Origin: Leucoraja erinacea
Taxonomy: Eukaryota
DNA: 64,000 nucleotides
Direction of reading: 5' to 3'
Assembly (NCBI RefSeq): GCF_028641065.1
Contig: NC_073387.1
Coordinates: forward strand, 13,826,001 to 13,890,000
The notes under the pieces were generated by a model. The model worked only from the letters and a program-made list of their open reading frames with translations, was not told the origin of the DNA and did no database searches. Position 1 is the first letter of the stretch. The number at the start of each line of letters is the position of its first letter. Positions 4,060 to 63,771 of the stretch are shown piece after piece. Made by a program: the position numbers and the translations under genes.

Positions 4060-4090
<31 letters not shown>

Positions 4091-5274: not shown

Positions 5275-5313
<39 letters not shown>

Positions 5314-38942: not shown

Positions 38943-39046
38943 TTCAGCTTCAGCTACAAGCCGTGAGTCGAGGAGTGGTGACTATTCAAGGGATTGAGGC
39001 CAGACACTACCTAGCAATGAGTGAAAAGGGACAGCTTTATGGTTCG
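38943..39046 (+). CDS. fgf1: FGF1-like, coding exon 2
   Basis: Pyrimidine tract plus ttttcag| acceptor and tcg|gtaagt donor. Length is the canonical 104 nt of the FGF middle exon. Encodes (I)QLQLQAVSRGVVTIQGIEARHYLAMSEKGQLYGS in phase with exon 1. Confidence 0.95.
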
Positions 39047-39532: not shown

Positions 39533-39840
39533 AAGCCCTGTACCACTGTACGAGCTAATTCAAGAGTTCTCCCGAGTTTGCCCTGATTCGAACTCGGAGA
39601 TTTTACGGTAATGGCCGCTTGTAGACTCTCTTGGACATTCTTCAACATGTTGAAAAATCTTCACGAGTCTTCCCGAGCTTACCGCGTTTCCCGAGTACCT
39701 GCCGTTAGCGTTACGAGCCACTAAGAGACGTCCCCGAGCTCCGACGTACCCGCTACGTACATTCTACGTGCTTCCACAAGTTTGATTTTTTTTTAACTCT
39801 GGAGAGGTCTTGAATGAACTGGTACAGTGGGGCAGCGCTT
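39533..39840. mobile_element. PIF/Harbinger-like MITE, second copy, in FGF intron 2
   Basis: Colinear with 34548-34854 (cactgtacgagctaattcaagagttctcc...) with 3-bp TSD TTA. Confidence 0.8.
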
Positions 39841-41160: not shown

Positions 41161-41470
41161 GCGGCACGGTAGTGCAGCGGTAGAGTTGCAGCCTTATAGC
41201 ACCAGCGACCCGGGTGCGATACTGACTACGGGTGCTGTCTGTACAGAGTATGTACGTTCACCCCCTGACCTTATGGGTTTTCCCCGGGTGCTCCAGATTC
41301 CTTCCACACTCCAATGACGTACAGGTTGGTAGGTTAATTAGTTTTGGTAAAAATTGTAAATTGTCCCTAGTGTGTAGGATAGTGCTAGCGTGCAGGAATC
41401 GCTGGTCGGTGCGGACTTGGTGGGCCAAAGCACCTGTTTTGGTGCCGTATCTTTAAACTAAATTAAGCTA
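41161..41470 (+). mobile_element. HE1-type V-SINE, near full length (FGF intron 2)
   Basis: gcggcacggtagtgcagcggtagag...tgtccctagtgtgtaggatag...ctaaattaag. Confidence 0.85.
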
Positions 41471-41679
41471 ATCAGGAGCTCAGGATTTCATGCCTCACTC
41501 TGCGACCTTGAACTAAAAATCTAAGTTCAGTTTAAGAGTAAATTAAATGTCTTACTCAAAGTCGTATTATTGCCGGGTTAACGTCCTCGTACAGATTATA
41601 TTGGCTGCTTTCTAAGCTGTACCCATTCCTGACTGCTCCGACTTGTTTTTACCTCTGCTTGTGCTTCTAATGCAGACAG

Positions 41680-41985
41680 AGCACTGCCCTGTCAGAGGTA
41701 CTGATCGTCAGAGGAAGTATTAAAGTTTCATCTGCTGACATAAATGATCTCCTGCCGCTTTTTTAACAAGAAGTTGGGGAGCTTACTCAGTTATCCTGGC
41801 CCATATCACTGGCTCGGCCTACTGCACCAAAGAGCCATTTGTCCATTTACTTCACTGTTGTTTCTGAGACTGTGCACTTAGCAAACAGCCCACCATGCCT
41901 TTTGCATTAAAGCAGTGACTAGACTTTAAAAAGAACTATTAAGCACCTTGACTACCTGAGATTTGGAAATGTAATTCTTCCTTTG
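41680..41985 (+). mobile_element. Ancient DeuSINE (SacSINE/AmnSINE-like) relic; further relics at ~47030-47300 (+), ~57075-57525 (-) and ~60880-61312 (-)
   Basis: Degenerate Deu-domain and tail motifs (tcctggcc.atat, cagtgacta.acttt.aaaag; cagccaatttgcac on the - strand copies), recognised by eye. Confidence 0.5.
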
Positions 41986-42546
41986 TATTTTCTATTTTAG
42001 CAGAGTAGTAGTAGAGCCATGTCCTGTGCTCTAAAAGGATTCTTTGATCACAAAGAGCTCTGTATAATAACTCGTGTATCCATAACAACTTCCTTCCCAC
42101 TCCCCCTCCTCTTCTGCCTTCCTTCCTTGCTACTCTTTCTCATGCTCTTTCCTGTCGAACCATAAATCACATCCCACAGCTTGAAGAGATAAGTATAGGG
42201 GAAGTAGCATCTTAGTAAATTACTGTTATAAGACAAAGGAAACAACACTCACCTGCACACACTGAGCTCAGGACAGCTTCTCTTCCCCGAAGCAAAATAA
42301 ACTGGAAAAGCAACTGCGAGAAAAGGTATTCTTCAAGTTAATGCCATGCAATATCAGGTAATTATTCTGCTTGACAGCAAACAAGCTGACTTTAACAATA
42401 TATATTTTTAAATTGATATCAAAGTTTGTTCTCAGTTGGAGTGTGCTTCTTCATTTTTTATGTTAAAATAAAGGCTTTGACACTAATCCATTCACCAAAA
42501 TGTTCTTCTTGAGAGAATGAACTATTAAAGTTCCTGAAGAACTGGA

Positions 42547-43025
42547 AAAGGTGCAGAGAGGATTTACGAGGATGTTGCCAGAACCTGAGGGCCTGTGCCA
42601 TAGGGAGAGGTTGAGCAGGCTAGGACTCTATTCCTTGGGGCACAGAAGGATGAGGGCTGATCTATTAGAGGCTTACAAAATTATTTGAGGTAGACGCACA
42701 GAATTTCTTGCCCAGAGTAGGAGAATCGAGAACCAGAGGACATACATTTATGATGAGGGGGATTAAGATATTTAATACAAACCTGAGAGGTAACGTTTTC
42801 ACACAAAGGCTGGTGTGTATATGGAACAAGCTGCCGAAGGAGGTAGTTGAGGCAGGTACTATTGCAACGTTTAAGAAACGATTAGACAGATACATGGATA
42901 AGACAGGTTTAAAGGGGTATGGGCCAAATGCAGGCAGGTGAGACTTGTGTAGATGGGACATGTTGGTTAGCCTGGGCATGTTGGCCGGAAGGGCCTGTTT
43001 ACGTGCTGTATCATTCTTTGATTCT
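42547..43025 (+). mobile_element. CR1 LINE 3' fragment (FGF intron 2)
   Basis: PRVGESRTRGH...FTQRLVCIWNKLP. Confidence 0.85.
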
Positions 43026-43191
43026 TTAACTCACCACCCTTGATATTCCATTGAAGGTACAAATGAGCCCAGTTGCCACAGGAGATCATAGAATCTCATG
43101 CTATTTTTGGGTGGCACTCACTTCATAAGCTCGTAAGTTCACAAGGAAGAGGAGCAGAATTAGGCCATTCGGCCCATCGAGTCTACTCCAT

Positions 43192-44561
43192 GGGGTATCA
43201 CAAGGCTCAATGCTGGGACCGCAGCTATTTACAATATACATCAATGATTTAGATGAAGGGATTCAAAGTAACATCAGGAAATTTGCAGATGACACAAAGC
43301 TGGGTGGCAGTGTGAACTGCGAGGAGGATGCTATGAGAATGCAGGGTGACTTGGACAGGTAAGGTGAGTGGAAAGATGCATGGCAGATGCAGTTTAATGT
43401 GGATAAATGTGAGGTTATCCACTTTGGAAGCAAAAACAGGAAGGCAGGTTATTATCTAAATGGTGTCAAGTTGGGGAAGTACAACGGGATCTGGGGATCT
43501 TTGTTCATCATTCAATGAAAGTACAGGTATAACAGGCAGTGAAGAAAGCGAATGGCATGTTGGCCTTCATAACAAGAGGAGTTGAGTATAACAGCAAAGA
43601 GGTCATTCTGCAGTTGTACAGGGCCCTAGTGAGACCACACCTGGAGTATTGTGTGCAGTTTTGGTCCCCTAGTTTGAGGAAGGACATTCTTGCTATTGAG
43701 GGAGTGCAGCATAGGTTCACGAGGTTAATTACCGGGATGGCAGGACTGTCCTATGCTGAGAGAATGGAGCGGTTGGGCTTGTATACTCTGGAATTTAGAA
43801 GGATGAGAGGGAATTCTTATTGAAACATATTAACGATTTGGACACGCTAGAGGCAGGAAACATGATGAGGTACAGGAGCATTAGCTGCAAAACCAGCAGG
43901 ATGCTCCTCAGCTTCTTCCCGCAGGCTATAAGACTGATAAACGGACTTTGCCCCCTGCCAAAGTATCGCGCACCAACCACCAACCTGGACACACTGCAGC
44001 AGAGCCACTGTCGTGCCGCTGCCGATCGGAACGCCTGTTGATGTTTAGTAGAGAGTAGAGTGTTTAATTTGTTCATGATATATGTATTTTTATTTCTATT
44101 TATTTTTTACTGCACAGTGAATGGACACTGGTTGAGCAACGTTTTTTTTGTTTCCTCTGGGTATGCGAGTACTCAGGAAAATGACAATAAAGATATACTA
44201 CTACTACTACTACTACTACTACTACATGTTCCCGATGTTGGGGGAGTCCAGAACTAGAGGCCACAGTTTAAGAATAAGGGGTAAGCCATTTAGAACGGAG
44301 ATGAAGAAACACTTTTTCACACAAAGAGTTGTGAGTCTGTGGAATTCTCTGCCTCAGAGGGCGGTGGAGACCGGTTCTCTGGATACTTTCAAGAGAGAGC
44401 TAGATAGGGTTCTTAAAGATAGCGGAATCAGGGGATATGGGGAGAAGGCAGCAACGGGGTACTGATTGGGGATGATCAGCCATGATCACATTGAATGGTG
44501 GTGCTGGCTCGAAGGGCCGAATGGCCTACTCCTGCACCTATTGTCTATTGTCTATTGCCTA
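43192..44561 (+). mobile_element. CR1 LINE with RT core, interrupted by the Rex1 fragment
   Basis: QGSMLGPQLFTIYINDLDEGIQSNIRKFADDTKLGG and VRPHLEYCVQFWSP, with a (tattgtc)n tail. It is itself inserted in an opposite-strand CR1 tail. Confidence 0.9.
43865..44223 (+). mobile_element. Rex1/Babar-type LINE 3' end inserted in a CR1
   Basis: RYRSISCKTSRMLLSFFPQAIRLIN C-terminal motif, aataaa plus (cta)n tail, and acatg duplicated on both sides. Confidence 0.75.
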
Positions 44562-45544
44562 TCATTCAATCATGGCTGATCTATCTTTCCCTCTCAACAT
44601 CGTTCTCCTGCTTTCTCCCCATAATCTTTGACACCCTTACTAATCAAGAATCTATCTATCTCTGCTAAAAAAAACACTCAATGACTCGGCCTCCACTGCC
44701 GTTTGTGGCAGGCTATCTTCAGTCAATTTTTCCAGAGACCAGTCTGAAACTGTTCCCAGAAAATTGGGCATCTACTGACTTGTGGTAACAATGTCAATAA
44801 TTGACGAATAGGGCTCAATTGAGGTTGGTTGAGAGATCGGGAATACATTCTTAGCTTATTCGGCCATTCAGCAGTCTTATAAGAACAGCGTAAAGGCTGC
44901 TGCTGAATCTGGTGGTAGGTGCTTTCAAGCTTTGGAACTTACACCTGACAATTTTCCAAAATCTGGAAACAAGCAAAGAAACCTCAAAGAAGGAGTGTGG
45001 GTGGGACAAGGAGAGGAGGAGCAAAAGGGAGGGAGACAGAGAGCAGAGTTTAGGATGAGGTAGCCATATTTTCTCATCCAAGTTTAACACCTCATTAAAA
45101 AGTTACAATTACTAGCAGACGTTTTTAAGTTGGAATTGTAAAAATACCTTCATTACATTGGAATATAATGTAAAATACAATGTTAAAGAAGTTGATCGTT
45201 GTATTATCATAATTTGGACATGAAGTGATTTACAGACTACAAATAATCATGTGATTATTGATTAAATAGTAAATTTATTGCAGTTTTAATCACATGATTA
45301 AACAATAGTAAGATATTATTTTTGAATAATGCAAAAAGCAAATGCCTTGATTTAGGAGTGGAAAATAAGGAACGGACTGATGAGGATGAAATGGAGTGGC
45401 TGTGCTGAGAAATTGAATTAACATTTTTCGGAAATGCACAGTTTCCAAACTATAACATGAAAAGCCTCCCAAAGCATTTTAAGCAAATGTTTCCAATTTT
45501 TAAAACTTCTTTAAAATAGCACGAAGGAGATACACCACTGTTTT

Positions 45545-46445
45545 AATCAACAAAGTGCTGAAGGGACTTGTATGTGTCGGAAGGAACTGAAGATGCTGGT
45601 TTAAACCGAAGACAGGCACAAAAAGCTGGAGTAACTCAGCGGGTCAGATACCATCTCTGGAGAAAAGGAATAGGTGACATTCCGACCCTTCTTCAGACCC
45701 GACCCAACCCTAAACATCAGCTATTCCTTTTCTCCAGAGGTGTTGTCTGACCCACTGAATGACTCCAGCTTTTTAATGTCTATCTTCTGCTGAAGGAACA
45801 GCAGGTCAGGCAACATCTGAGGAGGGATATGGACTGATGACATTTCAGGTCAGGACCCTTATTCAGACTGATGGCATAGAGGGGAGAAAGCTGGTAAAGA
45901 GAGATGAAGGGAAGAGGGAGTTGATGGGTGTGTGCAGTTGAGAAGTGACTGGGCAATGGGTGGAGACTGTAACAGGTGAAATGGAGACAAAAGGGTGCTC
46001 GATGAAGGATGACTGAAATGTAATGCCGGAGAGAGGGACACTGGGTAGAAGTAGATACGGGGACAAAGTGGAAGGAGAGAGGGGATTAAAAGAAATATAG
46101 GGAATGTGGAATAGGGCGGGGAGACGTCAGCAGAAGGAGGCGGGGAATGGAACAGAGTAGAAACATAGAAACATAGAAAATGGGTGCAGGAGTAGGCCAT
46201 TTGCCCCCTCGAGCCAGAACCGCTATTCAATATGATCATGGCTGATCATCCAAACCCCGTTCCCGTTTTCCCCCGTGACGGGATAGTGGGAGTAAGTTTT
46301 GTGCATGGGGAGGGGTGGGGAGAAAATGGATGCGAAAAGGGGGTGGGGGGAAGGGTGTGATGACCTGAAATTGGAGAATTCAACGTTCCTGCCGTTGAGG
46401 CTATGTAGTCTGGCGAAGCAAAAGATGAGGTACTGCTCTTTCAAA
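45545..46445 (-). mobile_element. Penelope-like 3' fragment with nested CR1 tail and nested fold-back element
   Basis: ORF KEQYLIFCFARLHSLNGRNVEFSNF resembles the PLE endonuclease C-terminus (EQHLIFRLG.LQP.G.N.EFSNF). Terminal repeat at ~45800-45870, CR1 tail at ~46160-46275, nested palindrome at ~45570-45787 flanked by tgctgaagg. Confidence 0.7.
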
Positions 46446-48406
46446 TGTTCTTCTGCGCATTGTTTAAATGCTGAGCGATTTACATCTGGGAAGTTTCTCT
46501 TTGTTTATACTCTATATGCAGCACTGAGGCATGTCAGGGCTGGTGAAATAGATTGTTTCCCTGTGTGACCATAAGCATTGCCAGAGATTATTTTTGCTGG
46601 ATAAAGATGACATATTGACATGTTACAGAGACGGGACAGGTAGTTGGAATTAAAGTGCAATTTGACCCTGATTTCTGTGTAAAGAGGAACAGACGAAAGG
46701 GACTGAATGGAGTATACTAGTGGCGAACAGAGCAATGCAGTTTGAAGACGCACTGTTCTGCCCCAGCAATGTAATTAATCCTGTGTTCATATATTCTTAA
46801 TGATTGCATTAATCAACACATGAAATTCCATAATCAGTAGCCAAAATAGATGAGCTAGCTCTTGCATTAATTATATAAGACACTGGGCAGTTTTCTCTTA
46901 CTCATATCACGCAGTGGAATTAGTACATTATGAAGATCAGCTTTAATCAGTGAATAATATTCTTGTCTCCATATCATAAGGTTGTGGACTCCAAAATGGC
47001 ATTTCCTGAGGAAGTTATATTATCAGTGATCTCGGCCATCAGATGAAACCTTAGACCAAGGATTTGTTTGCCTATTCATAAAGATGAAAAAGACCTCTTG
47101 GGACCAGTCGAAGGACTTTTCTCTGAAGCCACGGCCAATATTCTTCCTCCCCTTGCATTAACTAGTTGTACGCCACACTCCCTGTTTATTGGGCCTTGCA
47201 TTGTGCGAATTGCCTGCCAAAATGGTCCATTGGGGATGCGCTTCAGAAGAAGTAAATCACTTGCAATGAAACGCATTGGAAGGTCTTGTGATCATGAGGA
47301 GACGAGATGTTATTGCTAAAACCCAAGGTCCCAAGAGCAATCACTCCTACATCAATCTAGTAATCCACTTCCTGCACTAAGTCCTTCACTTATTCCAGGG
47401 CATAGCAATTCCTGGCTGACATTTGATGTTCTCCTTTCCTTGCCTTGAGGGTGCTGATTCACACATTCTGCAGCTGCACGTAGCCTACTTATTATCTCTT
47501 TGCAGTGATTGTTGGCAGGGTCTTTTATGGTGGGTGGGGACAATGCAACCTCACTGTCAGTGGCCTCGGCTAATATTCACGCAGGCTCAGACTCAAACAG
47601 ATGACATTCAGCTGCCGAACCCCTGGGTGGTTCCCTCACCCTTCCTTAGCCAGCAGGCAAACAGCACATCCAACCCCAGTCCTGACAGTCTGCTGGAGAG
47701 GGAGGGAGGGTGGACTCCAGACCGGCTGACCCCGGATGAACCAGAACTGCAACACTGCAGCGGTTCAAGAAGGCAAGCACATCAGGCCCTTTCACAAGGT
47801 CAATTAGGGATGGGCTGGTACTACTGGACTTGCCTGCAACACCCACATCCGCAGAAGAATAAAGGAATCATTGAGGATGGCGATTAACATGAAAGGCTAA
47901 GACATGGCACGTTGCTTTGACTGGGCTCATGTTACCTTAGACATAGAAGATTAAGGAGCAATTTAATTGAGGTGTTGGGATGATTGAAGGAATTGTTGAT
48001 GTAGATAGAGGGAATCTTTTAACTTTAGTGCAGGGGGGTGCAGTACAAGAGCCATAAAATTAGGCCCAGGCCGCAAGCATGTTCTCCTTCACTGAAAGGG
48101 TGGTGGAGATCTGAATTCACTGCCCACATCAATAGAGAATTTAAACCCAAAATTAAATGAGTTTTATTACAGTAGGATACAAAGAGAAATGGCAGCATCT
48201 CTGGAGAAAAGGGATAGGTAACGTTTTAGGTTGGGAGCCTTAAATCTGAAGATTGAGTACAGACTTTTCCTTTTGCTCCAGATTCCAGCATCTGCAGTCT
48301 CTTGTGTCTCAAGCTGGGAACCTCCTTCTCCAAGACTTTGCCTATAAGCCACCAGGGGGAGTGTGTTTCATTTCAATTGTTTTTATTCCTTCTATTTTAT
48401 ACACAG

Positions 48407-48601
48407 CCATCTCCAACTGAAGAATGTTTCTTCCTGGAAACCCTGGAGGAGAACAATTATAATACCTACAAGTCCAAAGAGTACGTGGAAAGGAACTGGT
48501 ACGTTGCCTTTCGGAAGAATGGGAATGCCAAGCCTGGACCTAAAACGGGGCCTAGACAGAAAGCAATCCTGTTTCTTCCCATGCAAGTGATAAGTGGTTA
48601 A
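48407..48601 (+). CDS. fgf1: FGF1-like, coding exon 3
   Basis: Acceptor tattttatacacag|. Encodes PSPTEECFFLETLEENNYNTYKSKEYVERNWYVAFRKNGNAKPGPKTGPRQKAILFLPMQVISG-stop (TAA). 195 nt; total CDS 468 nt = 155 aa, as for FGF1. Confidence 0.95.
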   Translation, partial: PSPTEECFFLETLEENNYNTYKSKEYVERNWYVAFRKNGNAKPGPKTGPRQKAILFLPMQVISG

Positions 48602-48702
48602 AAGTAAAACACGACACAGAGCCGTTTCTGAAAGGACTGGAGTAGGAGCCTGATTGGATTAGGTAATCATTGGTCAACGTCTTCAGAGTGATCACCACTG
48701 GC

Positions 48703-48708
48703 AATAAA
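48703..48708 (+). terminator. Candidate proximal polyadenylation signal of the FGF gene
   Basis: First AATAAA about 100 nt after the stop codon. A longer AU-rich 3'UTR extending to about 50000 is also plausible. Confidence 0.3.
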
Positions 48709-49278
48709 ATGGGATCTGAAGAATATTTACCCCCTAATTTCTGCCCATGTTTTATTCCTGATAACACTGACTTTCCCTAGAACCATGGAGGTTGTAGGGT
48801 CAGCATGCACCTTCTGACTTGTCCACCCCAGAGTGTGAGCCTTGGTAGTGATCAGCATTCAAAGGCTCCAGCCTCAAACCAATCTTGGGCCAACTGGGTA
48901 ATGCTTAACACAGGCATTTAACAGCAGCTCCATGGAGACTGGAATCGTGGATGCAAGTTTGGGATCACTACTTTTTTACACTCACGCCAGACCATAGAAG
49001 GATTATTTGGATCTTTCCCAACTAAGCCTGGCAGACCAGAGCAGAAACCAGGCACCTCCAACATTATGCATCTTATTAACAAATCAAGTGCATATCTTCT
49101 CAACTACGGAATGATGTGGAATGGGGGACGTTGCCACTACAGACTGATGTTGAGGGACTGGGCAGTAACAAAGACATTCCATAACTGACATTTAAGGACA
49201 AATTCTCTGAGTTTTCAGCTGTAGTGAAGTAACTGACCTTGTTATAAGATTGCTTACACTCACAGTAATTAATTTGTA

Positions 49279-49464
49279 GAGAGAGACACAAAAAACTGGA
49301 GTAACTCAGCGGGACAAGCAGCATTTCTGGGGAGAAGACTTTGAGTTTGATAAAGGGTCTCAACCCGAAACGTCACCAATTCCTTCTCTCAAGAGCTGCT
49401 GCTGTGTTACTCCAGCTTTTTGTGTCTATCTTCGGTTTAAATCAGCATCTGTTCCTTCCTACAC
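49279..49464. mobile_element. Fold-back Penelope-derived element downstream of the FGF stop codon
   Basis: 12-bp TSD aattaatttgta. The core is mutated (TTGATAA in place of CTGAAGA). Confidence 0.75.
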
Positions 49465-51974
49465 AATTAATTTGTAAATCCAGGTAACTTCAGAACAATT
49501 CCTGGGATGTTGTATTATGGATTTGAAGAACACAGGCTGACTTTAAACACCGTTATCTGTATGTTAAATAAGTACTGTACTGTTCCTAGATCTTCAATCA
49601 TTACAGGCATGTGAGCTTACTTTAAGGATTCAGATTTAAAAAACTCACCTCGTATATGAATTTTAAAATATTGCTCATCAGTCATTTTATTTCAGAAATC
49701 ATGTACTTTAAACAGCCAATCTGAAAAATGACAGATTAATGCCACAAATTCTGCTCGCTATATTCTCTGTATCTTGTAAACATGCATTTATTCATTAATA
49801 TTTGGATGAAGTCATTAAAGAAACAGTGTAAATCCAAATGTAGTGTTTTCCTTTATATATTCATGTACCATATTATAAAATGATTTATGATAACAGTGTC
49901 ACTTTACTGTGAAGACAGTGTCATGAGAGATTATGTAACAGTCCTGTATTTTCTGTTTATTAGCAACGCGGAAATCAATTTATATTATTCAAAGTAGCAT
50001 CTGTGGAGAAAGAGCATAAAATATAGAAAGGTACAGCACAGAAATAGGCCTTTGCCCACAATGTCTGTGCTGAACGTGATGCAAGGTGACCTAATCCCAT
50101 TTGCCTGAACAAGATCCATATCCCTCCAACCCCGTCATAGCAACGTGCCTATCTAAAAACTTCTTAAAAACCACTATGGTATATGCCTCCACCACCACCC
50201 CTTGCAGCACATCACAGGCACCTTCCCCTAATTGTGTAAACAAAAATTGCTGCATGCATCTCCTTTAAACTTTGCCTTTGTCACTTTAAAGAATTAGGTG
50301 AATTTAATAATTTAACCATTTAGGTTAATAATCCTGCATCACGCGGAAACTAATTTTCAAATTATTAAGCAAGATTATTGACCTGTAATGTTAGGTGTGT
50401 TTATCTCTCCACAGATGCTGACTGCTCTCCTGGGTATTTCCAGCACTTTGTGTTTTTATTTTACTTGAGTTATAACCAGTGACCTGCTTCCACCATGCCC
50501 TGTGGTTAACTGCGCAACATTTACTTCTCCCACAGCACATGTGATTCCAGTGCCCAAACTGGGAAAACTGAGAATGAACCGGAGCATAGCTTGGGGCAAA
50601 GGGTAGAAACAAGGAACTGCAGATGCTGGTTTTACAAAAATTCACAAAGTGCTGGAGGAACTCAGCAAGTCAGGCAATATTTCTGAAGAACATGAATAGG
50701 TGACGGTTTGGGTCACTACCTTTCTTCAAACTCAAAACATTTTGTTTTTCTCTGTTTCTCTTTCTATTCCCATTATTATTCTTTTACTTTCTGTCTCTTT
50801 GTCAGAGTCAAAAAATGGTTGCTTGATGCCCAATCCTTGGGAGTGGAATGTAAACTCCAAACTGACATTTCAGTGCGATATAGGTTCATAAGACATAGCA
50901 GCAGAATTGGGTCATTCGGCCCATCAAGTCTGCTCCACCATTCTATCATAGCCAATCTATTTTTCCCTCTCAACCCCATTCTCCTGCCTTCTCATCAGAA
51001 CCTTTGGTGCCCTTACTAGTCAAGAATTTATCAATGTCTGCTTTAAAAATACCCAATGACGGCCCCACCACCATCTGTGGCAATGAATTCCATAGATTTA
51101 CCAACCTCTGACTACAGAAATTCATTTTCATCATTCGAAAGGTACGTTCTTTTACTCCGAGGCTCTGGCCTTTGGTCCAAGACTCTCCCACAATGAGGGA
51201 ACAATCTGAAATGTTGTCTTTCAATTATGGCTAAAATTGCAATGCTTTCTCCTGCACTCGCCCTCAAACAAATGAAGTGCCATTTACTTAGATTAAAACT
51301 GGCATGCTGCTGGCTCCTCACCACAATATAATAATCTGACCCCCACCCATCTCTACAAAAGAAAAAATCAGGTAATTTAATTTTTTTTAACCAAGAAAAA
51401 AAAAATCTTGAAAATGTATGTTTTAATAAAATCGTGTTGTTCTAATCAGAAGTTGCAAGGGGACCTGCTGATGGAAAATAAAATTCTCATAACGAACTTG
51501 TTACACATCCCATGATGATCAATGGTTTATTTTTATAAACCATCCCGCCTCCGTGCATCTTCTTTCTCCTTACGCATCTTTTGCCGCTTAAAATCAGTCA
51601 CAAAATAGTCATTTTCCGATGACCTATTAACAAATAAAAAATCAGTAGAAACGAGGAACTGCAGATGCTGGTTAACACCCAAAAGGACACAAAGAGCTGG
51701 AGTAACTCAACTGGTCAGACAGCATCTCTGGAGAACAGGGATAGGTGCCTTTATTGTGTCAAGACCTGAAATTCGTGTTCTCCAGAGATGCTGCCTGACT
51801 AAACAAAAAAAATGCTCCAGTTGTGGTGAGATCTCTGATCATTATGCAATGTTAGCTCTAACCTCTATTCAAAATGGGCACTGCTATTTGTAATCACTTA
51901 CATTTGTTTTTCATGTTTGGTACATGGCAGTTTGTGATCATGAAAGCTACCCCACGTAGGTAGTTTTTGAAGGC

Positions 51975-53361: not shown

Positions 53362-53712
53362 ATTACTTGAAATTGGACAATTCAAGGTTCATTCCATTGG
53401 GTTGTAAGCTACTCAAGGAAAATACGAGGTGCTGTTCCTCCAACTTGCATGTGATCTCACACTGGCAGCGGAAGAGGCTCAGGATAGAAAGGTTGGAATG
53501 GAAAGGGAAGTTGAAATGGTGAGCAACCGGGATATCCAGCAGGCCTTGGCAAAACGATCACAAATGTTCATCGAAATGGTTGACTATTCTACATGACATA
53601 GTCTGCTGGGTAGTTTACAACCCAACCTGGTGAACATTGGTCTCCAGGTTCAAGTAATACCCTCCTGCTCCCTTCTCTTTCTTGTGTCACTTATTTCTCC
53701 CACTATCTCCTA

Positions 53713-53743
<31 letters not shown>

Positions 53744-54390
53744 GACACTCTGCTCCTATCACCACCTTTGTACACTCACTTTACTTTAGAGATACAGAGG
53801 GGGACAATTTACAATTTTTTACCAAAGCCAATTAGCCGACAAATCTGTACGTGTTTGAAGTGTGGAAAACGGAGCACCCGGAGAAAAGCCATGGATTTAC
53901 AGGGAGAATGTACAGTACAAATTCCATACATGCAACAACTGTAGTCAGGATTGAACCCAGGTCTCTGGTGCTGTAAGGCAGCAACTCTATTGCTGCGCCA
54001 CTGTGCTACCCTAAGCTGCGCCACAGTGCTGTCGTCCCATCCCCATCCCCGCGTCCCTCAATTCCCTTTTATCATCCCCCCTGGCTTTACATTTTACTTC
54101 TGTCCTAATCTGACACCTTTTCCTCGTTTCCTTTCCACCTGCACCCGTTGAACTTATTCCACCCATTCAAACTCCTCTCATCTTCATCCACTCATCGTTA
54201 GCTTGGCTTTGTCCTGTACCGCGCCCCACATATCTTTTCCGCCTTTCCCCCTCCACTACTTTCAGTCTAAAGAAGTGTTCCAACCCGAACCATCGCCTAT
54301 TCAGAGCCCGCTCCTGTTCCTGGCCAGCTCAGTTCCTCCAGCACTTTGTGCTTTGCTCAAGATTCCTGCATCTGCAGTTACATTTGTCTC
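53362..54390 (+). mobile_element. Penelope-like 3' fragment with inverted 5' segment
   Basis: 53362-53600 on the - strand encodes KLEEQHLVFSLSSLQPNGMNLELSNFK. 53600-54390 on the + strand carries the same C-terminal region and a degenerate terminal repeat. An HE1 SINE is nested at ~53780-54025. Confidence 0.7.
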
Positions 54391-55680: not shown

Positions 55681-55904
55681 TGAATTAACATGAGAATGTC
55701 ATCAGGCCACTTGTGTTGTGCTAAAGCTGCATTCCTCTGAAAATGACCACTATAAATTCCCCCCAGTGTGCAGGGAGTGGATGAGAAAATATGATTACAT
55801 AGAACTAGTATGAACGGGTGATCGATGGTCAGTCTGAACATAGTGGGCCGAAGGCCCTGTTTCCATGCTATTTCTCTAAACTGAGCTTAACTAAGTATAA
55901 ATTA

Positions 55905-56069
55905 TTCAAGAAGGAACTGCAGATGCTGGAAGATTGAAGGTACACAAAATTGCTGGAGAAACTCAGCGGGTGCAGCAGCATCTTATGGAGCGAAGGAAAT
56001 AGGCGACGTTTCGGGCCGAAACCCTTCTTCAGACTGGGTCTGAAGAAGGGTTTCGGCCCGAAACGTCGC
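55905..56069. mobile_element. Short Penelope-derived element with two opposed hammerhead cores
   Basis: 14-bp TSD ctaagtataaatta (55891-55904 / 56070-56083). Internal gacgtttcgggccgaaacccttcttcag-actgggt-ctgaagaagggtttcggcccgaaacgtc. Confidence 0.85.
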
Positions 56070-56071
56070 CT
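56036..56071 (+). ncRNA. Minimal type I hammerhead ribozyme motif
   Basis: GGGU|CUGAAGA|A|GGGU-UUCG-GCCC|GAAA|CG|UC^GCCU. It has the conserved CUGANGA and GAAA core, a 4-bp stem II, stem I GGGU/GCCU and a palindromic ACGU stem III as in PLE minimal hammerheads. Predicted cut after 56067. Activity is untested. Confidence 0.7.
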
Positions 56072-56559
56072 AAGTATAAATTAAGTCTGTTTACCCAAAA
56101 CAGAAAGATGATGCACAAATAGTGACCATAAGTATAAGTAGTCAGCAATAATTCCATTCAGGAATGTGGAAGCGTGGTCTTCAACCAAAGAATGCTTAGA
56201 ATGTAGAACCTGCAACTCATGGTGTGTCTGTAGGAGGCAACAATAACCAAAGGGGGGTTAATGGGCATGTGAGAGGGAAAGGTTTCCACAGGTGTAAAAG
56301 GCAAAGAGAATAGGATTTATGGGATTGCTCTTCTGGGATTTGTCATAGACCCCCCTATGTAACTATAAGTAGTGGTGCAATTATGAAGAATATCTAGATA
56401 CCTTAAGGAAAAAGCTAACTAAATTCATGAAGGTGAAATGAATAGGATACATAGATGGGGTTAAACGAGGTAGGATAGAGAAAGTTATCTTACAAAATAA
56501 ACTCCAGTAGGGATGTTACTGGCAAGATGGACTGCTTCCGAGTGAGTATCCTCCATCAG

Positions 56560-56800
56560 GGCGGCATGGTGGTGCAAAAGTAGACTTGCTGCCTTACAGC
56601 GCTTACAGTGCTAGAGACCTGGGTTCAATCCTGACTACAGGTGCTGTCTGTACGGGGTTTGTATAATCTCCCCAGCTTGGTGTAAATGTAAATTGTCCCT
56701 GTATGTGTAGGATAGTTTTAATGTGTGGGGATCGCCAGTTGGCGCAGACTCGGTAGGTCGAAGTGTCTGTTTCCGCGCTGTATCTCTAATCTAAACTAAA
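56560..56800 (+). mobile_element. HE1-type V-SINE with internal deletion
   Basis: Head and tail match the consensus; the V-domain is shortened. Confidence 0.75.
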
Positions 56801-57159
56801 CAAAACATGCAGAGATACTGAACAATATGCTGAACAAAGCATTAAAAAACTGTAGTACTTTATCCAGTGTTGCTTTTCTTTATTTTTTTATTTTTTTTAT
56901 TTATCCATATGGAGAGTATTCCATCATACTCCTCACTTGCAGTTTTAAGATAATGGAAAGCCTCTTGCAGCTTTGTGGCTGGTCCAGTAGCTTGTATTTC
57001 TGTGGTTGGTCCAGCTGAGTTACCAGTCAATGGTGATCCTGGCCTCCAGGATGTTGAATACTTTCGTGGGAAAGAAATAATTTGCATTCATGAAGCACCT
57101 TTAACAGCCTGAGGCTATGTCAAAGCACTTTCCACTCAACTCAACACGTATGAAGTGTA

Positions 57160-57407
57160 AACAAAAAGGACACAAAGTGTTGGAGTAACTCAACAGGTTG
57201 AGCAGCATCCATGGAGAACATGAATAGTTGATGCTTCGGATCGGGACCATTCTTCAGACTGTTTCTTCAATTCAGTCTGAAGAAGGGTCCCGACCCAAAA
57301 CATCACCTATCCATGTTCTCCAGGGATGCTGCTCAACCCGTTGAGTTACTCCAGCGCTTTGTGTCCTTTTTTTTGTAATCCAGCATCTGTAGGACCTTGT
57401 TTCTACA
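57160..57407. mobile_element. Fold-back Penelope-derived hammerhead element (older)
   Basis: 11-bp TSD tatgaagtgta. Inverted arms meet at cagactg-tttcttcaatt-cagtctgaagaaggg. The core has decayed (GAAA to AAAA). Confidence 0.8.
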
Positions 57408-57526
57408 TATGAAGTGTAGTTATCTCTGAAACATCAGTCGACATAGCAGCCAATTTGCACCCACAACTTAATAACGACTAGACTTTCAGAAATAGATGTT
57501 GGTTGTGGGCCAGATAGCCTGAGAAA

Positions 57527-57865
57527 GCTAGTTGAAGGTAGTTGAAGGTGGTTGCCGGAGGTTGCAGGTAGTGGATGGTAAGACCTTCCACTACCTACAA
57601 CCTCCGGCAACCACCTTCAACTAGCATCCCAACCGGCTTCGACTAAAAAATTACCGATTTTTAAAACGGCAACCTATTTTTAGTCACGGCTGGTTTTTAA
57701 TTTTTTGAAATAATCGCCGGAACATAGAAGAAGCGGAAACCACTTTCGATCATTGGGGAGACTGACAAAAACCTCCGGGATCCTCCAGGAACCGCACAGA
57801 AACCTTGGGTGGGGCGCAAAGTCTCCAGAGGTTTCCGTTCAGGTTTCCTAAGTGGGACAGGGACA
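57527..57865. mobile_element. Partial Harbinger-like MITE with internal hairpin
   Basis: Ends agtgggacagggaca|taa, the same TIR type as above. Contains a 37-bp-arm inverted repeat at 57539-57575 / 57587-57623. Confidence 0.55.
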
Positions 57866-58141
57866 TAACAATCAACCACCTGGGTCCAGGTACCCACCAA
57901 GAAAATCGTCAGTCAGTCGTTTTTTAGTGCTGCCCAGGCAGTGGCCATGGAGTGGGTACCTGCTGTGTGTCAATATGTTCACAAAAGGAGGAAAGAAAAT
58001 GCTGAAGAAGGGTCCCAATTCGAAACACCACCCAACCATTTTCTCCAAAGATGCTACCTGGCCAGCTGAGTTACTCCAGCACTCCGTGTCTTTTTTTTTT
58101 AAAGCAGCATCTGCAGTTCCTTGTGTCTAAAGACAATCAAT

Positions 58142-58450
58142 GCCACCATAGTGGCGCAGTGGCAGAGTTGGTGCTTTTCTGTGACAGAGACCCAGGTTCG
58201 ATCCTAACTATGGGTGCAATCTGTACGGAATTTGTACCTTCTCCCTATGACTACATCAGTTTTCCCTGGGTGCTCCGGATTCCTCCCACACCCCCAAGAC
58301 ATACAGGTTTATAGAATAATTGGCTTGGTAAAATTGTAAATTGTCCCTAGTGTGTGTAGAATAGTGTTAGTTTGCGAGGATCGCTGGTCAGCGCTAACTT
58401 GGTGGGCCAAAGGGCCTGTTTCTGCGCTGTATCTCTAAACTAAATTAAAC
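58142..58450 (+). mobile_element. HE1-type V-SINE
   Basis: Consensus match across head, V-domain and tail. Confidence 0.8.
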
Positions 58451-59328
58451 TGTAAAAGACTGGCAATAAAAATGTTGTTTTATTTTAACCCAGGAAAGCA
58501 GTTATTCTAACTATATTAAAAAATATCAAAAAATATAAAATATAATACTTGCTTTATTTGCATCACATCTGCCTAAATACTAACATAATATTCATGTTAT
58601 TCTAGAGGCTCTTTTGTTTGAAACCACCTTCAGGTTAATGAAAGGGTTAAGCTGTTGCAAAGTGCTTCAGGAAGCCTGCTGGCCCCAGGGTACAGTAAGA
58701 GCAGGAAGGGAGTCATTAGCTGTAAACTGACATGGTATTACTTCCTTCTGGATTACTGTTTAAGGAGGGCAGGAATTTGAGCCCTGTCACTACCACAGTA
58801 AAGTAATTTGGCGAGCATGTGTCAGCACTGACAGCAAAGAAGCCTCTGTGGTTTTAGCGAGCTGCTGTGCATTGACAATCATATATTTATACGTCTGGTC
58901 AAGGTCTATACTTTACTATTTGGAAATTCTGGCCTTCCGTTTCTTTCAACTACTGTCATTTAGATGTCACCTAATGTAATGGTAATCTATGATCTGTGGG
59001 CCTCTGCATTTGACCTTGATGAGTCTGAGTCGCTTCCGGGAATAAAAATGCTGCATCAAAAATGTGTCATTAGGACTCTCCTTATGGGTCATTGGGCAAG
59101 TACAGCAAATGGCCAGGGTGCTGCAGATCCATACACTCCAAAGCCGCTGACTGAGATGATTACTTTTATTTTTATTAACTTTAATTTCTTCATGGGCGAT
59201 GGTCAACATTGGCATTTATTGTCCATCCTTAACAGCTTTCAAAGTAAATAGTTTGTGGAGTGAACTACATAACTGGTGCACTGTATTCAAATACAGGCTA
59301 AAGTGGATTAATTCAATAGATTTCATTG

Positions 59329-59464
59329 AAGTAGTCTGAAGAAGGGTTTCGGCCCGAAACGTTGCCTATTTCCTTCGCACCATAGATGCTGCTGCACCCG
59401 CTGAGTTTCTCCAGCATTTTTGTGTACCTTCGATTTTCCAGCATCTGCAGTTCCTTCTTAAACA
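59329..59464 (+). mobile_element. Monomeric Penelope-derived hammerhead element
   Basis: 15-bp TSD caatagatttcattg (59314-59328 / 59465-59479). Intact core CTGAAGAAGGGTTTCGGCCCGAAACGTT at 59336-59363. Confidence 0.85.
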
Positions 59465-60393
59465 CAATAGATTTCATTGCCTGAAGGATATGTGAGGGGG
59501 GTGGATTTTTACAGCAATCCGATCAATTAAATAGTCACTACTGATAGAGCATCAGAGAATAAACTGGATCACAAGAGAGCCTAATATGGAAACTTTCCCA
59601 CATATAAGTGACACTGGCATTACTAATCAGATAACATTTGCTGTTAACGTTTGTTTACCGGTACTTAATATCGTGGGTTCGACAGCTATCCTACAAGCTC
59701 CACAATTAAGAAGGGAATCTCCACAAATCTCCCAAATTCTTGGAAAACAATCTCATCAATGAATAACATTTAACCTACATAACTTTCTACCTCCTTCGCT
59801 CCTGAATAGTGAATGCAGGCAACTTCATGACTTTGATTTTGGAGACAAGTATTGAGCTGGCGAATGCAGATCAAAGGCCTGATGTTGCCCTGAATGACTT
59901 TCCCTTTTATTGATTACAATGGAAATGAAAATTGAACTGCATATGTAATGGGTGTTCTGACCCAATATTGACCATGTTGTTCTGTCCCCAAGGGATAAAG
60001 TTGGCCACATTATCTTTAAAATAGCCTTTAGTTTGGGTCGTTTTGAGGATTTGTACAGTAGACACAATTCCCTGTCTAAAATGTGTCTTCGTCCACTATT
60101 TTCTGTGGTACTTTTGGGTTTGTGAACTGCACTGCGGGCAATACAGGATACACTTAGTCCTGGAGCACCAAAGGCCAAGTCTACTGTATTTATTGCAATA
60201 GGAGACTCTCGACTGAACATAATGCATTATACAGACAAAGCTGCAGCAAATAATCACCTAACTCAGTTCCTTGATTAGCAGTAACCCCATCAACTTTTAA
60301 ATTACAATTACATTTAGCAGCTGATGCATATGAGCCACGACCAACATATACCACATTATCTTTAAGCAAGTACTGGTTAATAATTTCACTCAA

Positions 60394-60686
60394 TACTCGA
60401 GGACAAGAGAACATATGTGTAAAGAGATGGAGAAACAATTGAATAGGAATCTGAGAGGTAATCTTTTCACACAAAGGGTGGTGGGTGTATGGAACAAGCT
60501 GCCAGAGGAGGTAGTTGAGGCAGGGACTATTCCAACATTTAAGAAACATTTTGACAGGTACATGGATAGGAAATGTTTGCTAATGGGCCAAATGCAAGCA
60601 GGTGGGATTAGTGTAGCTGGGACATGTTGGCCGTTGTAGGCAAGTTGGGACGAAGGGCCTGTTTCCACACTCTATCACTCTATGAC
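60394..60686 (+). mobile_element. CR1 3' fragment
   Basis: NRNLRGNLFTQRVVGVWNKLPEEVVEAG. Confidence 0.8.
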
Positions 60687-60840
60687 TAGTTGAAGTCTAG
60701 AAACCAACACATTTGCAGTGTTCTGGATTGTAGAGAATTAGTCTTTAGCTAGACATTGATATTCAGTCAAATATCCTTTCTTCAACGCATTTAAAAAAAA
60801 CTTGTAAATCCTACATATGTTTAACCTGCTAACCTGCTGA

Positions 60841-60990
60841 CAATTGTGGGGTAAATCTAAACAAATGGAAGAGAAATACCTTTTATGGTTCTTTCAGAAT
60901 ATGCCAAAGTGCTTTAAGGCAAATTGGGATATTCTGAAAGAACCATAAAAGGTGTTTTTCTTCCACTTGTTTAGATTTATCCCACAATTG
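60841..60990. repeat. Inverted repeat with 62-bp arms
   Basis: 60841-60902 versus 60929-60990, with 4 mismatches and a 26-bp spacer. Confidence 0.9.
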
Positions 60991-61599
60991 AGATTCTTTA
61001 GAAGTGTGGTCTAGGTATTAATGTAACAGCCAGAATGCACACAGTAAAGTTAAAGACACAATCTCTTTTAGCGAAGATAGACGCATTCACCTGGAGTAAC
61101 TCAGAGTGTCCGGCAGATTCTCTGGAGAAAAGGAATAGGTGATGTTCCGGGTCGAGACACTTTGTCAGACCATCTGAAATGTCACATATTCATTTTTTCT
61201 AGAGATGTTGCCTGACCCGCTGAGTTACTCCAGCTTCCTCCCTACACATAATCTATTTCAGTGACCTTTCATAAGGAACAGATAGAGGGGCAGTAACTTC
61301 TTTGAAATGGCACAGTGAAACTCCAATACTGGCATCTGATTATATGGAAATTCTGTAATCTGGCATCTCTCTCACTCATTAGCCCAGAATGTGAGCCCAT
61401 GGGTCCAGAGGGCAGCCAGTGCCAGACTCCAAGCTATGGGCTGGGAGTGCAGCCAGAGCCAGGGGTGTGGTCGGATCTGGGGCTGATGTGAATTACCAGG
61501 GAGCAGGTAGCCTTGTGGCCAGAGCTGGGGTCCAGAGCGCTTATATAATTCCTGTTCTATTTAAACTCACTTTGTACACTTTGTAACATGTAAAAATAA

Positions 61600-62050
61600 A
61601 TCATAGTCGTACAGCATGGAATCAGACCCTTCAGCCCAACTTGCCCACATCCACCAACATATCCCATCTACCTACACTAGTCCCACCTGCCTGCATTTGC
61701 CTATATTCCTCTGACCCTTTCCTTTCCATGTACCGACCCAAATGTATTTTAAATGTTACAATAGTACCTGCCTCAACTACCTCCTCTGGCAGCTCGTTTC
61801 ATATACATACCACCCTCTAAAATGTTGCCCCTCGGGTTCCTGTTAAATCTTTCCACTCTCACTGTAAGCCTATGTCTCCTGGTTCTTGATTCCCCTACTC
61901 TGAGTAAAAGATGATGTGCGTCTACCTTATCTCTTCCCCTCATGATCTTTTACACCTCCATATGATCACCCTTCATTTCCTGCGTTCCGAGGAATAATGT
62001 CATAGCCTGCAGAACCTCTCCCTATAGTTGAAGCCCTCAAGTCCTGGCAA
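61600..62050 (-). mobile_element. CR1 3' fragment
   Basis: Reverse complement of the subfamily seen at 42547 and 60394 (cctgcctcaactacctcctctggcagctc). Confidence 0.8.
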
Positions 62051-62411
62051 ATGAAATAAAAATATGTGTGGCACAGCGGAAGAGTTGCATCCTGACTACA
62101 GGTGCTGTCTATACGGAGTTTGTAGTTCTCCCCGTGACCTGCGTGGGTTTTCTCCAAGATCTTCGGTTTCCTTCCGCACTCCAAAGATGTACAGGTTTGT
62201 AGGTTAATTGGCTTGGTATAAATGTAAATTGTCCCTGTGTGTATACGGTAGCGTTAATGTGCGGGGATCGTTGCTTGATGAGGAGTCGGTGGGCCGAAGG
62301 GCGTGTTTCCGTGCAGTATCTCTAAAACTAAAATAAAATAAATATTAAATGAATAACATTTAACAGTACGGAAAAATTACTAATCCAGCAACACCAAAGT
62401 CCCAAAGGTGT

Positions 62412-62628
62412 TCAAGAAGGAACTGCAGATGCTGGAAGATCGAAGGTACACAAAATTGCTGGAGAAACTCAGCGCGTGCAGCAGCATCTATGGAGTGAAG
62501 AAAATAGGCGACGTTTCGGGCCGAAACCCTTCTTCAGTCTGAAGAAGGGTTTCAGCCCGAAACGTCGCCTATTTTCTTCACTCCATAGATGCTGCTGCAC
62601 CCGCTGAGTTTCTCCAGCAATTTTGTGT
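62412..62628. mobile_element. Fold-back Penelope-derived hammerhead element
   Basis: 16-bp TSD aaagtcccaaaggtgt (62396-62411 / 62629-62644). 91-bp arms (62447-62537 / 62539-62629) with 2 mismatches around a single central T, and hammerhead cores on both strands. Confidence 0.9.
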
Positions 62629-62872
62629 AAAGTCCCAAAGGTGTCGGGTTACTGGAGTTTCACTGCGCTGGGAAATCTCCTACCTCTGCATGAGAGAGCA
62701 GAGACACTCCAATGTTGTAATTCTCAACTAACTCAGATGAGACAGATAAAGAAAATCCAAGCACATTACAGGACCTGAAATTATTGGTGAAACTGTTAGT
62801 AAGATTTAATATTTATTTACGTTATGTATAATTCCCTCTCATTCAATTGCAGTTTTTCAATTAAATTATTGT

Positions 62873-62888
62873 ACCACTAGAGGGGGCA
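62873..62888 (+). promoter_or_regulatory. CTCF-like motif
   Basis: ACCACTAGAGGGGGCA. Confidence 0.45.
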
Positions 62889-63054
62889 TGAGAGATGTTG
62901 CTGAGATAATTCAATGGCATCCCACACGAACCTAATTCCCGTTCCATCCACAGATTTTTTTAAATTTCCAAAAATAAACATAATTCAGATTTTAAAATAT
63001 ATACAAAACAAGAACCGTTCAAAAACTCTTTTGACATTGCCTCTTGAGAAAAAC

Positions 63055-63562
63055 GTTAAGATACAGCGTGGAAAGAAGCCCTTCAGCCCGCTGAGTCCAT
63101 GCCAACCAACGATCACAGAGCACACTAGCACTTCCCCACACACTAGGGACGATTTACAATCAAGTAACAAGTATCCTTTATTGTCATTCAGACTTTTCAG
63201 TCTGAACGAAATTTCGTGCCTTGCAGTCATAACATAGAATAAAATAACAAAACACACAATAAACACAGATTTAACATCCACCACAGTGAGTCCACCAGCC
63301 ACCTCCTCATTGTGATGGAAGGCAAAAGTCTTAAAGTCCTTGTCTCTTCCCTCCTTGTTCTCCCTCAATTTTACCAAAGCCAATTAACCTACAAACTTGT
63401 ACGTCTTTGGAGTGTGGGAGGGAGTCGGAGCAGCCAGAGAAAACCCATGCGGTCACAGGGGGAATGTACAAAGTCCATACAGACAGCACCCGTGGTCAAG
63501 ATCAAACCCAGGTCTCTGACGCTGTAAGGCAGCAACTTTACTGCTGCGCCACCGTGCCACCG
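63055..63562 (-). mobile_element. HE1-type V-SINE interrupted by a ~200-bp insertion (~63160-63366)
   Basis: SINE halves flank an insert with a minus-strand aataaa tail (ctttattgtcattc), with caat on both sides. Confidence 0.7.
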
Positions 63563-63655
63563 TCATTCTTTACATTAATTAGTGTCATATTTGGTGGTGT
63601 TCGCAACTACCCTTAAATTAAGTACCCTTGCCACTCATGTGGTCCCCTGAGGAGA

Positions 63656-63771
63656 GACACAAAATGCTGGAGTAACTCAGCGGGTGAGGCAGCATCTCTG
63701 GAGAGAAGGGCGACGTTTCGGGTCGAGACCCTTCTTCAGACCAGCATCTGCAGTTCTTTCTTACACATTTT
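63656..63771 (-). mobile_element. Penelope-derived hammerhead element with inversion
   Basis: 14-bp TSD gtcccctgaggaga. Intact minus-strand core ctgaagaagggtctcgacccgaaacgtc. Confidence 0.8.

What the first reader, a model, noticed from the sequence alone, without database searches (positions are those of the whole stretch)
55905..63771. Abundant short Penelope-derived elements carrying a minimal hammerhead ribozyme
Seen: about 25-30 related ~100-250 bp elements are spread over the window (e.g. near 8330, 10130, 11720, 17281, 18587, 24230, 25534, 35022, 45570, 49279, 51645, 55905, 57160, 58000, 59329, 61075, 62412, 63656). The youngest copies read CTGAAGA-A-GGGT(TTCG)GCCC-GAAA-CG-TC, and others GGGT(CTCG/CCCG)ACCC, so stem II is kept by a U-G/U-A switch while the loop varies. 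Many have clean 9-16 bp TSDs. The same terminal repeat is fused to GIY-YIG remnants at 38240-38833, 45545-46445 and 53362-54390. Established: CUGANGA...GAAA...UH is the hammerhead core, Penelope-like elements carry minimal hammerheads with a palindromic stem III thought to act as dimers, and an extra A after A9 occurs in natural hammerheads. Inference: this is a very high-copy, ribozyme-bearing non-autonomous retroelement family (SINE- or retrozyme-like) mobilised by a Penelope RT/endonuclease, and it is probably catalogued only as an anonymous repeat.
Basis: partly seen in the sequence, partly recalled or inferred. Interest (0 to 1): 0.8.

Follow-up and report, generated by a model that had tools for sequence, protein, structure and literature searches.

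The report
Penelope end-repeat stubs with hammerhead motif
These 95-130-letter repeats are the end piece of a known kind of jumping gene (a Penelope-like retrotransposon) bearing a known miniature self-cutting-RNA motif whose activity is untested here; they are likely short by-products of that element's copying rather than a family of their own, and their ends give clues to how such elements insert.

Summary
Observation confirmed: 36 copies in the window, only 6 with an intact motif; roughly 820,000 genome-wide. The repeat is the pseudo-LTR (pLTR) of a Neptune-type Penelope-like element (RT + GIY-YIG, about 3.9 kb) and sits at both ends of full-length copies. Its motif fits the published minimal type I hammerhead consensus, so the kind is known. 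A separate SINE or retrozyme family is not supported: short and ORF-attached copies share alleles, copies are dispersed or head-to-head, and their 5' ends pile up 0-8 nt upstream of the core, not at the cut site. The 3' ends fall at two sites about 34 nt apart, the known Penelope 'tail'. In 46 of 46 inverted pairs exactly one arm has the tail. Most likely the stubs are run-off cDNAs from the uncut 5' end of the element's RNA. Self-cleavage is untested; the monomer fold is unfavourable in the youngest subfamily. The scan noted this same family, with similar readings, on other DNA of this genome.

The parts
55905..56035 (-). Long arm of an inverted pair: pLTR -3..+127 with tail, young subfamily A, intact motif (C3 at 56032)
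56038..56072 (+). Short arm of the pair: motif 56040-56067 (predicted cut after 56067), ends at about +30 in the TSD
55891..55904 (+). Left TSD (14 bp; right copy 56070-56083)
57160..57260 (-). Tail-less arm of an older inverted pair, motif decayed
57274..57401 (+). Tailed arm of that pair, GAAA mutated; TSD 57146-57159 / 57405-57418 with 1 mismatch
58002..58124 (+). Decayed solo pLTR with tail
59333..59464 (+). Young solo pLTR with tail, intact motif with GUU triplet; 15-bp TSD 59314-59328 / 59465-59479
61076..61237 (.). Old inverted pair (61076-61170 minus, 61174-61237 plus), motifs decayed
62410..62629 (.). Young inverted pair: tailed arm 62410-62539 (minus), tail-less arm 62536-62629 (plus), both motifs intact; 16-bp TSD 62396-62411 / 62629-62644
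63654..63766 (.). Subfamily B pLTR 63654-63741 (minus, intact motif) with an inverted tail fragment 63741-63766; TSD 63640-63655 / 63770-63785 with 1 mismatch
38237..38833 (-). 5'-truncated element: GIY-YIG remnant (about 38580-38833), pyrimidine-rich 3' UTR, decayed pLTR 38237-38331
45572..46445 (-). C-terminal endonuclease remnant (about 46363-46445), 3' UTR and pLTR 45788-45869, next to an inverted pLTR pair 45572-45784
53362..54379 (.). Inverted endonuclease C-terminal piece (minus, from 53362), sense piece with a SINE insertion, decayed pLTR 54264-54379 (plus)
8335..51799 (.). Further decayed copies at 8335-8460, 10131, 11719, 17283, 18587, 24230, 25532, 29773, 31187, 32169, 35023-35247, 48190, 49283-49464, 50404, 50640, 51686-51799; none with an intact motif

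Best explanation
The repeat is the pseudo-LTR of a Neptune-type Penelope-like retrotransposon, and the short copies are likely run-off cDNAs that the element's reverse transcriptase made from the uncut 5' end of its own RNA. Shown: the same 130-nt sequence lies directly before the ORF and again after it; short copies end at +90..95 or +119..132 on the 3' side and mostly at -8..+1 on the 5' side (0 = first C of CUGAAGA; the predicted cut is between +27 and +28). Inferred: transcription starts a few bases upstream of the core at an initiator-like TCAGT; the enzyme initiates internally at one of two sites, as shown in vitro for an anole element; initiation on the 5' copy runs off the RNA end after about 95 or 130 nt and gives a solo stub, while initiation on a downstream copy gives ORF-bearing, 5'-truncated or tandem copies. 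When both target strands are primed, one uses each site, giving head-to-head pairs with one tail inside one TSD. The hammerhead would cut only rarely, as a dimer or with protein help, and is not needed to make the stubs.
For: Parent: 17 of 20 RT-selected loci carry the repeat 1453-1483 nt after the RT anchor; 17 of 29 loci with the ORF N-terminus have it in direct orientation just upstream, running into the 5' UTR and a start codon near +165; 11 of those 17 have RT, endonuclease and the repeat at both ends. RVT_1 E 2e-7, GIY-YIG E 4e-4, below Pfam's cut-off. Ends: 87 young insertions, all 3' ends in two clusters; in 70 hits chosen without regard to the core, 28 5' ends at -8..+1, 0 at -9..-47, 0 at +28. 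[quoted passage not shown] Same alleles in solo and attached copies (22/18 vs 16/13). 46 of 46 inverted pairs have one tailed and one tail-less arm (15, 14, 17). Internal initiation at two sites, uncut RNA as main template and a protein-assisted hammerhead are reported for PAc (PMC11167929).
Against: The start site is inferred from DNA ends only; no cap or 5'-end data. The 5' edge is soft on its inner side (19 of 70 ends at +2..+22). No full-length copy starts cleanly at -3: 9 of 17 run on into a partial tandem, 7 start at +28..+81, 1 at about +2, so ORF copies need another template that I did not identify. One full-length copy starts exactly at +28. Solo copies could also serve as templates in trans; three allele sites in one subfamily cannot exclude that. 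PAc showed no strand difference in initiation site in vitro, which does not predict the strict one-tail rule.
Confidence: 0.72

Rival explanations
1. Solo pLTRs are self-propagating non-autonomous elements (SINE-like): each has an internal promoter and the two initiation sites, so its transcripts are copied in trans by the Penelope enzyme.
For: 56 of 87 young insertions are short, most with their own TSD; solo copies contain both initiation sites; pLTRs sufficed for mobilisation in trans in a rotifer (PMC3846280, passages).
Against: No solo-specific alleles at three sites; 24 of 30 junction copies include 5' UTR sequence that solos lack; PAc needs RNA about 55 nt beyond the initiation sites (PMC11167929), which a solo would lack if the same holds here.
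Confidence: 0.15
2. Retrozyme-like: the ribozyme cuts dimeric transcripts into unit RNAs or circles that are reverse-transcribed and inserted.
For: Intact minimal motif in the source lineages; animal retrozymes derive from pLTRs (bioRxiv 2026.07.22.740005); partial tandems of the full element could come from a circle; 270 junction hits at +28 vs 71 at +25 and 52 at +31.
Against: Copies span the cut site and start upstream of the core; after inspection the +28 count (20 of 30 real ends) is only about 1.2 times that of a GC-start control at +41 (140 hits, 29 of 30 real); copies are dispersed or head-to-head, not head-to-tail arrays.
Confidence: 0.05
3. The stubs are ordinary random 5' truncations from the 3' pLTR, with a reverse-transcriptase stop caused by structure or by the C-rich tract, or by a splice acceptor (pyrimidine tract + CAG) at -3/-2; inverted pairs arise by self-priming on an antisense RNA.
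For: 5' truncation is typical of PLEs (PMC8557442); in D. virilis the intron ends at helix I (PMC4209133); antisense self-priming was proposed in PMC3846280.
Against: Sharp edge: 53 of 56 short copies end within 9 nt upstream of the core but only 7 attached copies end between -12 and -190; ends fall before, not in, the C tract; no shared upstream exon in solos; no splice joint among the 15 joints listed (117 not shown); does not explain short 5' UTR copies.
Confidence: 0.08

Closest known systems
Minimal type I hammerheads in pLTRs of metazoan PLEs (Cervera and De la Pena 2014, PMC4209133; main text parts 1-2 of 4 and supplement parts 1-2 of 3 read)
   Same: CUGANGA + extra base, G10.1-C11.1, GAAA-C-G-U-H with palindromic helix III and no loop, in both flanking repeats, mostly found as single motifs from truncated elements.
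   Different: No shark or skate in the searched supplement (one file not searchable); helix I here is 2 bp, with U-G at the closing pair in the youngest subfamily; copy number far above the 4,000-9,000 motifs reported for coelacanth and Xenopus.
Neptune-clade EN+ PLEs and their insertion architecture (Craig et al. 2021, PMC8557442; passages read)
   Same: RT + C-terminal GIY-YIG, CX2-5CXXC linker, partial tandems, inverted 5' copy, 30-40 bp tail often at one end only.
   Different: Here the one-tail rule is strict (46 of 46) and stubs of pLTR alone outnumber ORF-bearing copies.
PAc, Poseidon element of the green anole (Frangieh et al. 2024, PMC11167929; parts 1-2 of 4 read)
   Same: Two internal initiation sites defining the tail, both target strands cut and extended, hammerhead uncut in the main template and no reads ending at the cut site.
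   Different: Other clade; in PAc the ORF starts inside the hammerhead, here about 165 nt downstream; PAc showed no strand preference of initiation site.
Non-LTR retrozymes (PMC7229834, passages; bioRxiv 10.64898/2026.07.22.740005, parts 1-3 of 5 read)
   Same: Type I hammerhead, pLTR origin, monomers dispersed over chromosomes.
   Different: Retrozymes are head-to-tail tandem units of 170-400 nt giving circles; these are 95-130 nt singles or head-to-head pairs with TSDs.

Membership tests
Minimal type I hammerhead of metazoan PLEs | Core CUGANGA-H, GAAA, NUH | tested here: met
   CUGAAGA-A...GAAA-C-G-U-C/U in young copies against the consensus
Minimal type I hammerhead of metazoan PLEs | Helix II with G10.1-C11.1 | tested here: inconclusive
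   4 bp possible in sequence; predicted pair probability 0.81-0.93 in a subfamily B copy but 0.001-0.016 in subfamily A; no compensatory change seen
Minimal type I hammerhead of metazoan PLEs | Palindromic 15.2-16.2 allowing dimer helix III | tested here: met
   ACGU; predicted dimer helices II+III about -13 kcal/mol vs -24 for the best co-fold
Minimal type I hammerhead of metazoan PLEs | Helix I | tested here: inconclusive
   2 bp only (GU/AC, or GU/GC in subfamily A); 2-bp cases exist in the published alignment
Minimal type I hammerhead of metazoan PLEs | Located in both pLTRs of an RT-EN element | tested here: met
   11 of 17 loci
Minimal type I hammerhead of metazoan PLEs | Self-cleavage | not testable with these tools
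   No Rfam hammerhead hit at E<=1; no excess of insertion ends at the cut site
Neptune-type EN+ PLE | One ORF with RT and C-terminal GIY-YIG | tested here: met
   every copy examined is interrupted, longest open frame 1,052 aa
Neptune-type EN+ PLE | CX2-5CXXC linker, DKG and CCHH motifs | tested here: met
   C-X4-C-X2-C before the endonuclease, DKG before RT (definitions)
Neptune-type EN+ PLE | Partial tandems, inverted 5' copies, 30-40 bp tail | tested here: met
Neptune-type EN+ PLE | Placement in the Neptune clade by RT phylogeny | not tested
   no named clade references were fetched
Non-LTR retrozyme | Head-to-tail tandem units each with a hammerhead | tested here: not met
   window copies single or head-to-head; isolated tandems at L030 and L050 only
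Non-LTR retrozyme | Unit-length linear and circular RNA from self-cleavage | tested here: inconclusive
   no pile-up of read ends at the cut site in fragmented libraries; insertion ends do not match
SINE | Own source lineage with diagnostic mutations | tested here: not met
   three sites, subfamily A only
SINE | Structural-RNA-derived head with Pol III promoter | not tested
   the whole unit is accounted for as pLTR

The most novel reading that the evidence does not exclude
Hundreds of thousands of stubs record two unresolved steps of Penelope transposition: reverse transcription of the uncut 5' end of the RNA (a strong-stop-like product that maps the start site), and an obligatory division of labour in which a dimeric enzyme primes one target strand at the tail site and the other at the inner site; ORF-bearing tandems would come from a rarer circular or multimeric template that the hammerhead gates.
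Probability: 0.4. Interest if true: 0.55.

Novelty: new member of a known kind. Interest (0 to 1): 0.3.

Why it matters
As a ribozyme finding it is ordinary: minimal hammerheads in Penelope pLTRs have been in print since 2014, and about 93% of copies here are broken. It extends them to a cartilaginous fish at very high copy number (no paper found in searches; the 2026 retrozyme preprint sampled one chondrichthyan for tandem units, supplements closed). Its value is mechanistic: the ends of young copies give numbers (sharp 5' edge, two 3' sites, strict one-tail rule, no excess at the cut site) against which models of Penelope transposition and of the hammerhead's role can be tested.

Tried and rejected
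Rfam scan: no hammerhead family, only sub-threshold miRNA hairpins on inverted pairs. Monomer folds: z-scores -1.33 to +1.14, hammerhead not the minimum. Excess of ends at the cut site: looked 3-fold against +25 and +31, fell to about 1.2-fold against a GC-start control after inspecting 30 loci each (the +25 and +31 hits were not inspected). Search for compensatory stem II variants (810 hits): the commonest has an A.A mismatch and is a passenger in a TIR element, so no covariation evidence. Same-template test of partial tandems: upstream part closest to its own 3' end in 3 of 8 loci, private shared variants in 2 of 8; inconclusive. Splice acceptor at -3/-2: no joint listed. Run search: no RNA holder listed among indexed runs. 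Read ends: fragmented libraries cannot show the cut. An extra 5' G from the cap was looked at by eye and is confounded by TSDs. Lunse et al. 2017 on dimer cleavage could not be read; seen only as cited in PMC6765202, so whether it lists skate sequences is unknown.
Full report
Observation. A profile built from 30 genomic copies finds 36 hits in the window and none in 5 shuffles; 6 of the 36 have an intact motif, all within 55.9-63.8 kb. The loose core pattern alone gives 21 matches against 6.3 expected. The window lies in a 2.19-Gb genome, where a 28-nt core pattern has 23,010 exact matches and a 32-mer of one subfamily 33,109, with 0 for the reversed controls. Twenty 10-kb stretches, one per contig at round coordinates, hold 75 hits, 5 with an intact motif; that scales crudely to 820,000 copies, probably high because small, denser contigs are over-represented. 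The host is a cartilaginous fish by inference: the only named relative of the protein is from Chiloscyllium (66% identity), and the neighbouring SINE resembles HE1 (recalled, no call). The young subfamily is held in DNA or unlabelled runs of seven organism labels.

Coordinates below: 0 is the first C of CUGAAGA; the predicted cut lies between +27 and +28.

The parent. The repeat follows the YIG motif by 354-487 nt in 14 of 20 loci found with the window's remnant and follows an RT anchor by 1453-1483 nt in 17 of 20 RT-selected loci (one further locus had a misplaced anchor, two lack it). The protein has RVT_1 (E 2e-7), a weak GIY-YIG match, a DKG motif and a C-X4-C-X2-C linker, the marks of Neptune elements in PMC8557442 (passages); no tree was built. 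Of 29 loci with the N-terminus, 17 reach the same repeat in direct orientation, which runs on into a 5' UTR and a start codon near +165. Eleven of these 17 have RT, endonuclease and the repeat at both ends; the eight tandem ones measure 3.3-4.15 kb per unit; none has an unbroken frame.

The motif. It fits the published consensus NNN CUGANGAH G...C GAAA N-palindrome-NU H NNN (supplement of PMC4209133), whose authors already reported that most such motifs are singles from truncated PLEs and cleave poorly even as dimers. Helix I is 2 bp. Helix II is predicted in a subfamily B copy (0.81-0.93) but not in subfamily A (0.001-0.016), where other pairings win, among them the tail pairing with the core. 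The U-G/U-A switch is one-sided. A search for double changes in stem II found mainly an A.A mismatch variant riding in a TIR element. In 39 young copies the core mutates as fast as other non-CpG sites (8/390 vs 30/1209; CpG 60/390), as expected for dead insertions. Rfam has no hammerhead hit. Activity is neither shown nor excluded.

The ends. Of 90 young loci, 3 were dropped as duplicates or second arms; of the 87 left, 31 are attached to the 3' UTR/ORF, 41 are solo and 15 are short inverted pairs. All 3' ends fall at +90..95 or +119..132; reads in RNA and DNA runs break at the same places. This is the 30-40 bp tail that PMC11167929 traced to two internal initiation sites. 53 of 56 short copies begin within 9 nt upstream of the core, while only 7 attached copies end between -12 and -190. 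Since that set required an intact core, I took 70 hits selected on +49..+80: 28 begin at -8..+1, 19 at +2..+22, 4 at +29..+36, none at +28 or at -9..-47, and 19 further upstream (includes one duplicated locus and three look-alikes). Junction counts gave 270 at +28, 71 at +25, 52 at +31 and 140 at +41. Inspection left 20 of 30 real ends at +28 and 29 of 30 at +41; after my hand correction for the chance that a flank passes each pattern (0.22 and 0.20) these give about 820 and 670. There is no useful excess at the cut site. Against this stands one full-length copy that starts exactly at +28.

Separate family or by-product. Solo and attached copies share alleles in like proportions at three sites. 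[quoted passage not shown] Both points favour by-products. Copying of solo transcripts in trans is not excluded.

Inverted pairs. In 46 of 46 pairs one arm ends at +119 or beyond and the other at +95 or before (15, 14, 17; pairs hit twice were counted once, one duplicate and one unmeasured pair were left out; three short arms end at +70..+83). Non-inverted copies are 43 short to 29 long, so independent choice would give mixed pairs 48% of the time (hand calculation). The literature says the tail is often at one end only; I infer that the two target strands are primed at different sites, perhaps by the dimer predicted for PAc. Antisense self-priming remains a rival.

Expression. In two single-cell runs of organism B the endonuclease end is read about 25:1 in the element's sense, and the ORF start mostly in sense at low depth; in bulk runs both directions are equal. 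No read-end pile-up lies at the cut site, but these libraries are fragmented and the organism may differ from the window's.

What is open. Full-length copies do not start at -3: 9 of 17 extend into a partial tandem. A circular or multimeric template would explain this and give the hammerhead a role, but the same-template test was inconclusive.

Prior notes. I had written this reading down before looking up the scan's notes, where 110 notes in this genome fit and the eight shown reach much the same view; they are not independent evidence.

Verdict. Real, very abundant, and a new member of a known kind. The SINE/retrozyme reading is not supported; the insertion ends carry modest mechanistic interest.

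Noticed in passing
L246-L250, L252, L255 (about -470..+235 around the motif): An inverted pLTR pair with an A.A mismatch in stem II has been captured by a ~700-bp element with terminal inverted repeats and spread as a passenger; it makes up most of 810 pattern hits, many at the distal end of contig C1.
   Followed up: partly
window 57500-57870: Repeat whose end resembles the terminal inverted repeat of that carrier element, with an internal hairpin at 57548-57614.
   Followed up: no
window 56560-56790, 58150-58430, 62070-62330, 63040-63560, 53790-54030: Copies of an abundant SINE, HE1-like by recall; one interrupts the element remnant at 53.4-54.4 kb.
   Followed up: no
window 55905-56035 (minus); L119: The end of the tail can pair with the hammerhead core in subfamily A, a possible switch that enzyme binding at the initiation site would release; it also mimics short terminal inverted repeats.
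   Followed up: partly
L114, L119, L123 just upstream of the core: Pyrimidine tract + CAG looks like a splice acceptor at the start of helix I, where the D. virilis intron ends; no splice joint listed in RNA.
   Followed up: partly
L064, L150, L173, L184, L390: 5' junctions hold short stuttered copies of the first 6-12 nt of the repeat, as if the enzyme re-primed at the template's end.
   Followed up: no
L196-L225: Short 5' copies end in loose clusters near +190, +230 and +250, possibly further initiation sites inside the ORF start.
   Followed up: no
L086, L088, L089, L097 N-terminal region: The ORF has a long proline-rich, repetitive and variable stretch of about 350 residues before the RT.
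   Followed up: no
L030 and L050: Rare head-to-tail arrangements: a direct second copy after +95, and 66-nt tandem units of the inner repeat.
   Followed up: no
window 1250-7340, 7707-8201, 17581-18300, 32843-33325: Long C- or G-rich low-complexity tracts, LINE RT C-terminal remnants, and a minisatellite with an open frame at 17.6-18.3 kb; no host exon was sought.
   Followed up: no
window 26069-26160, 60870-60961: Unrelated inverted repeats that score weakly as miRNA hairpins.
   Followed up: no
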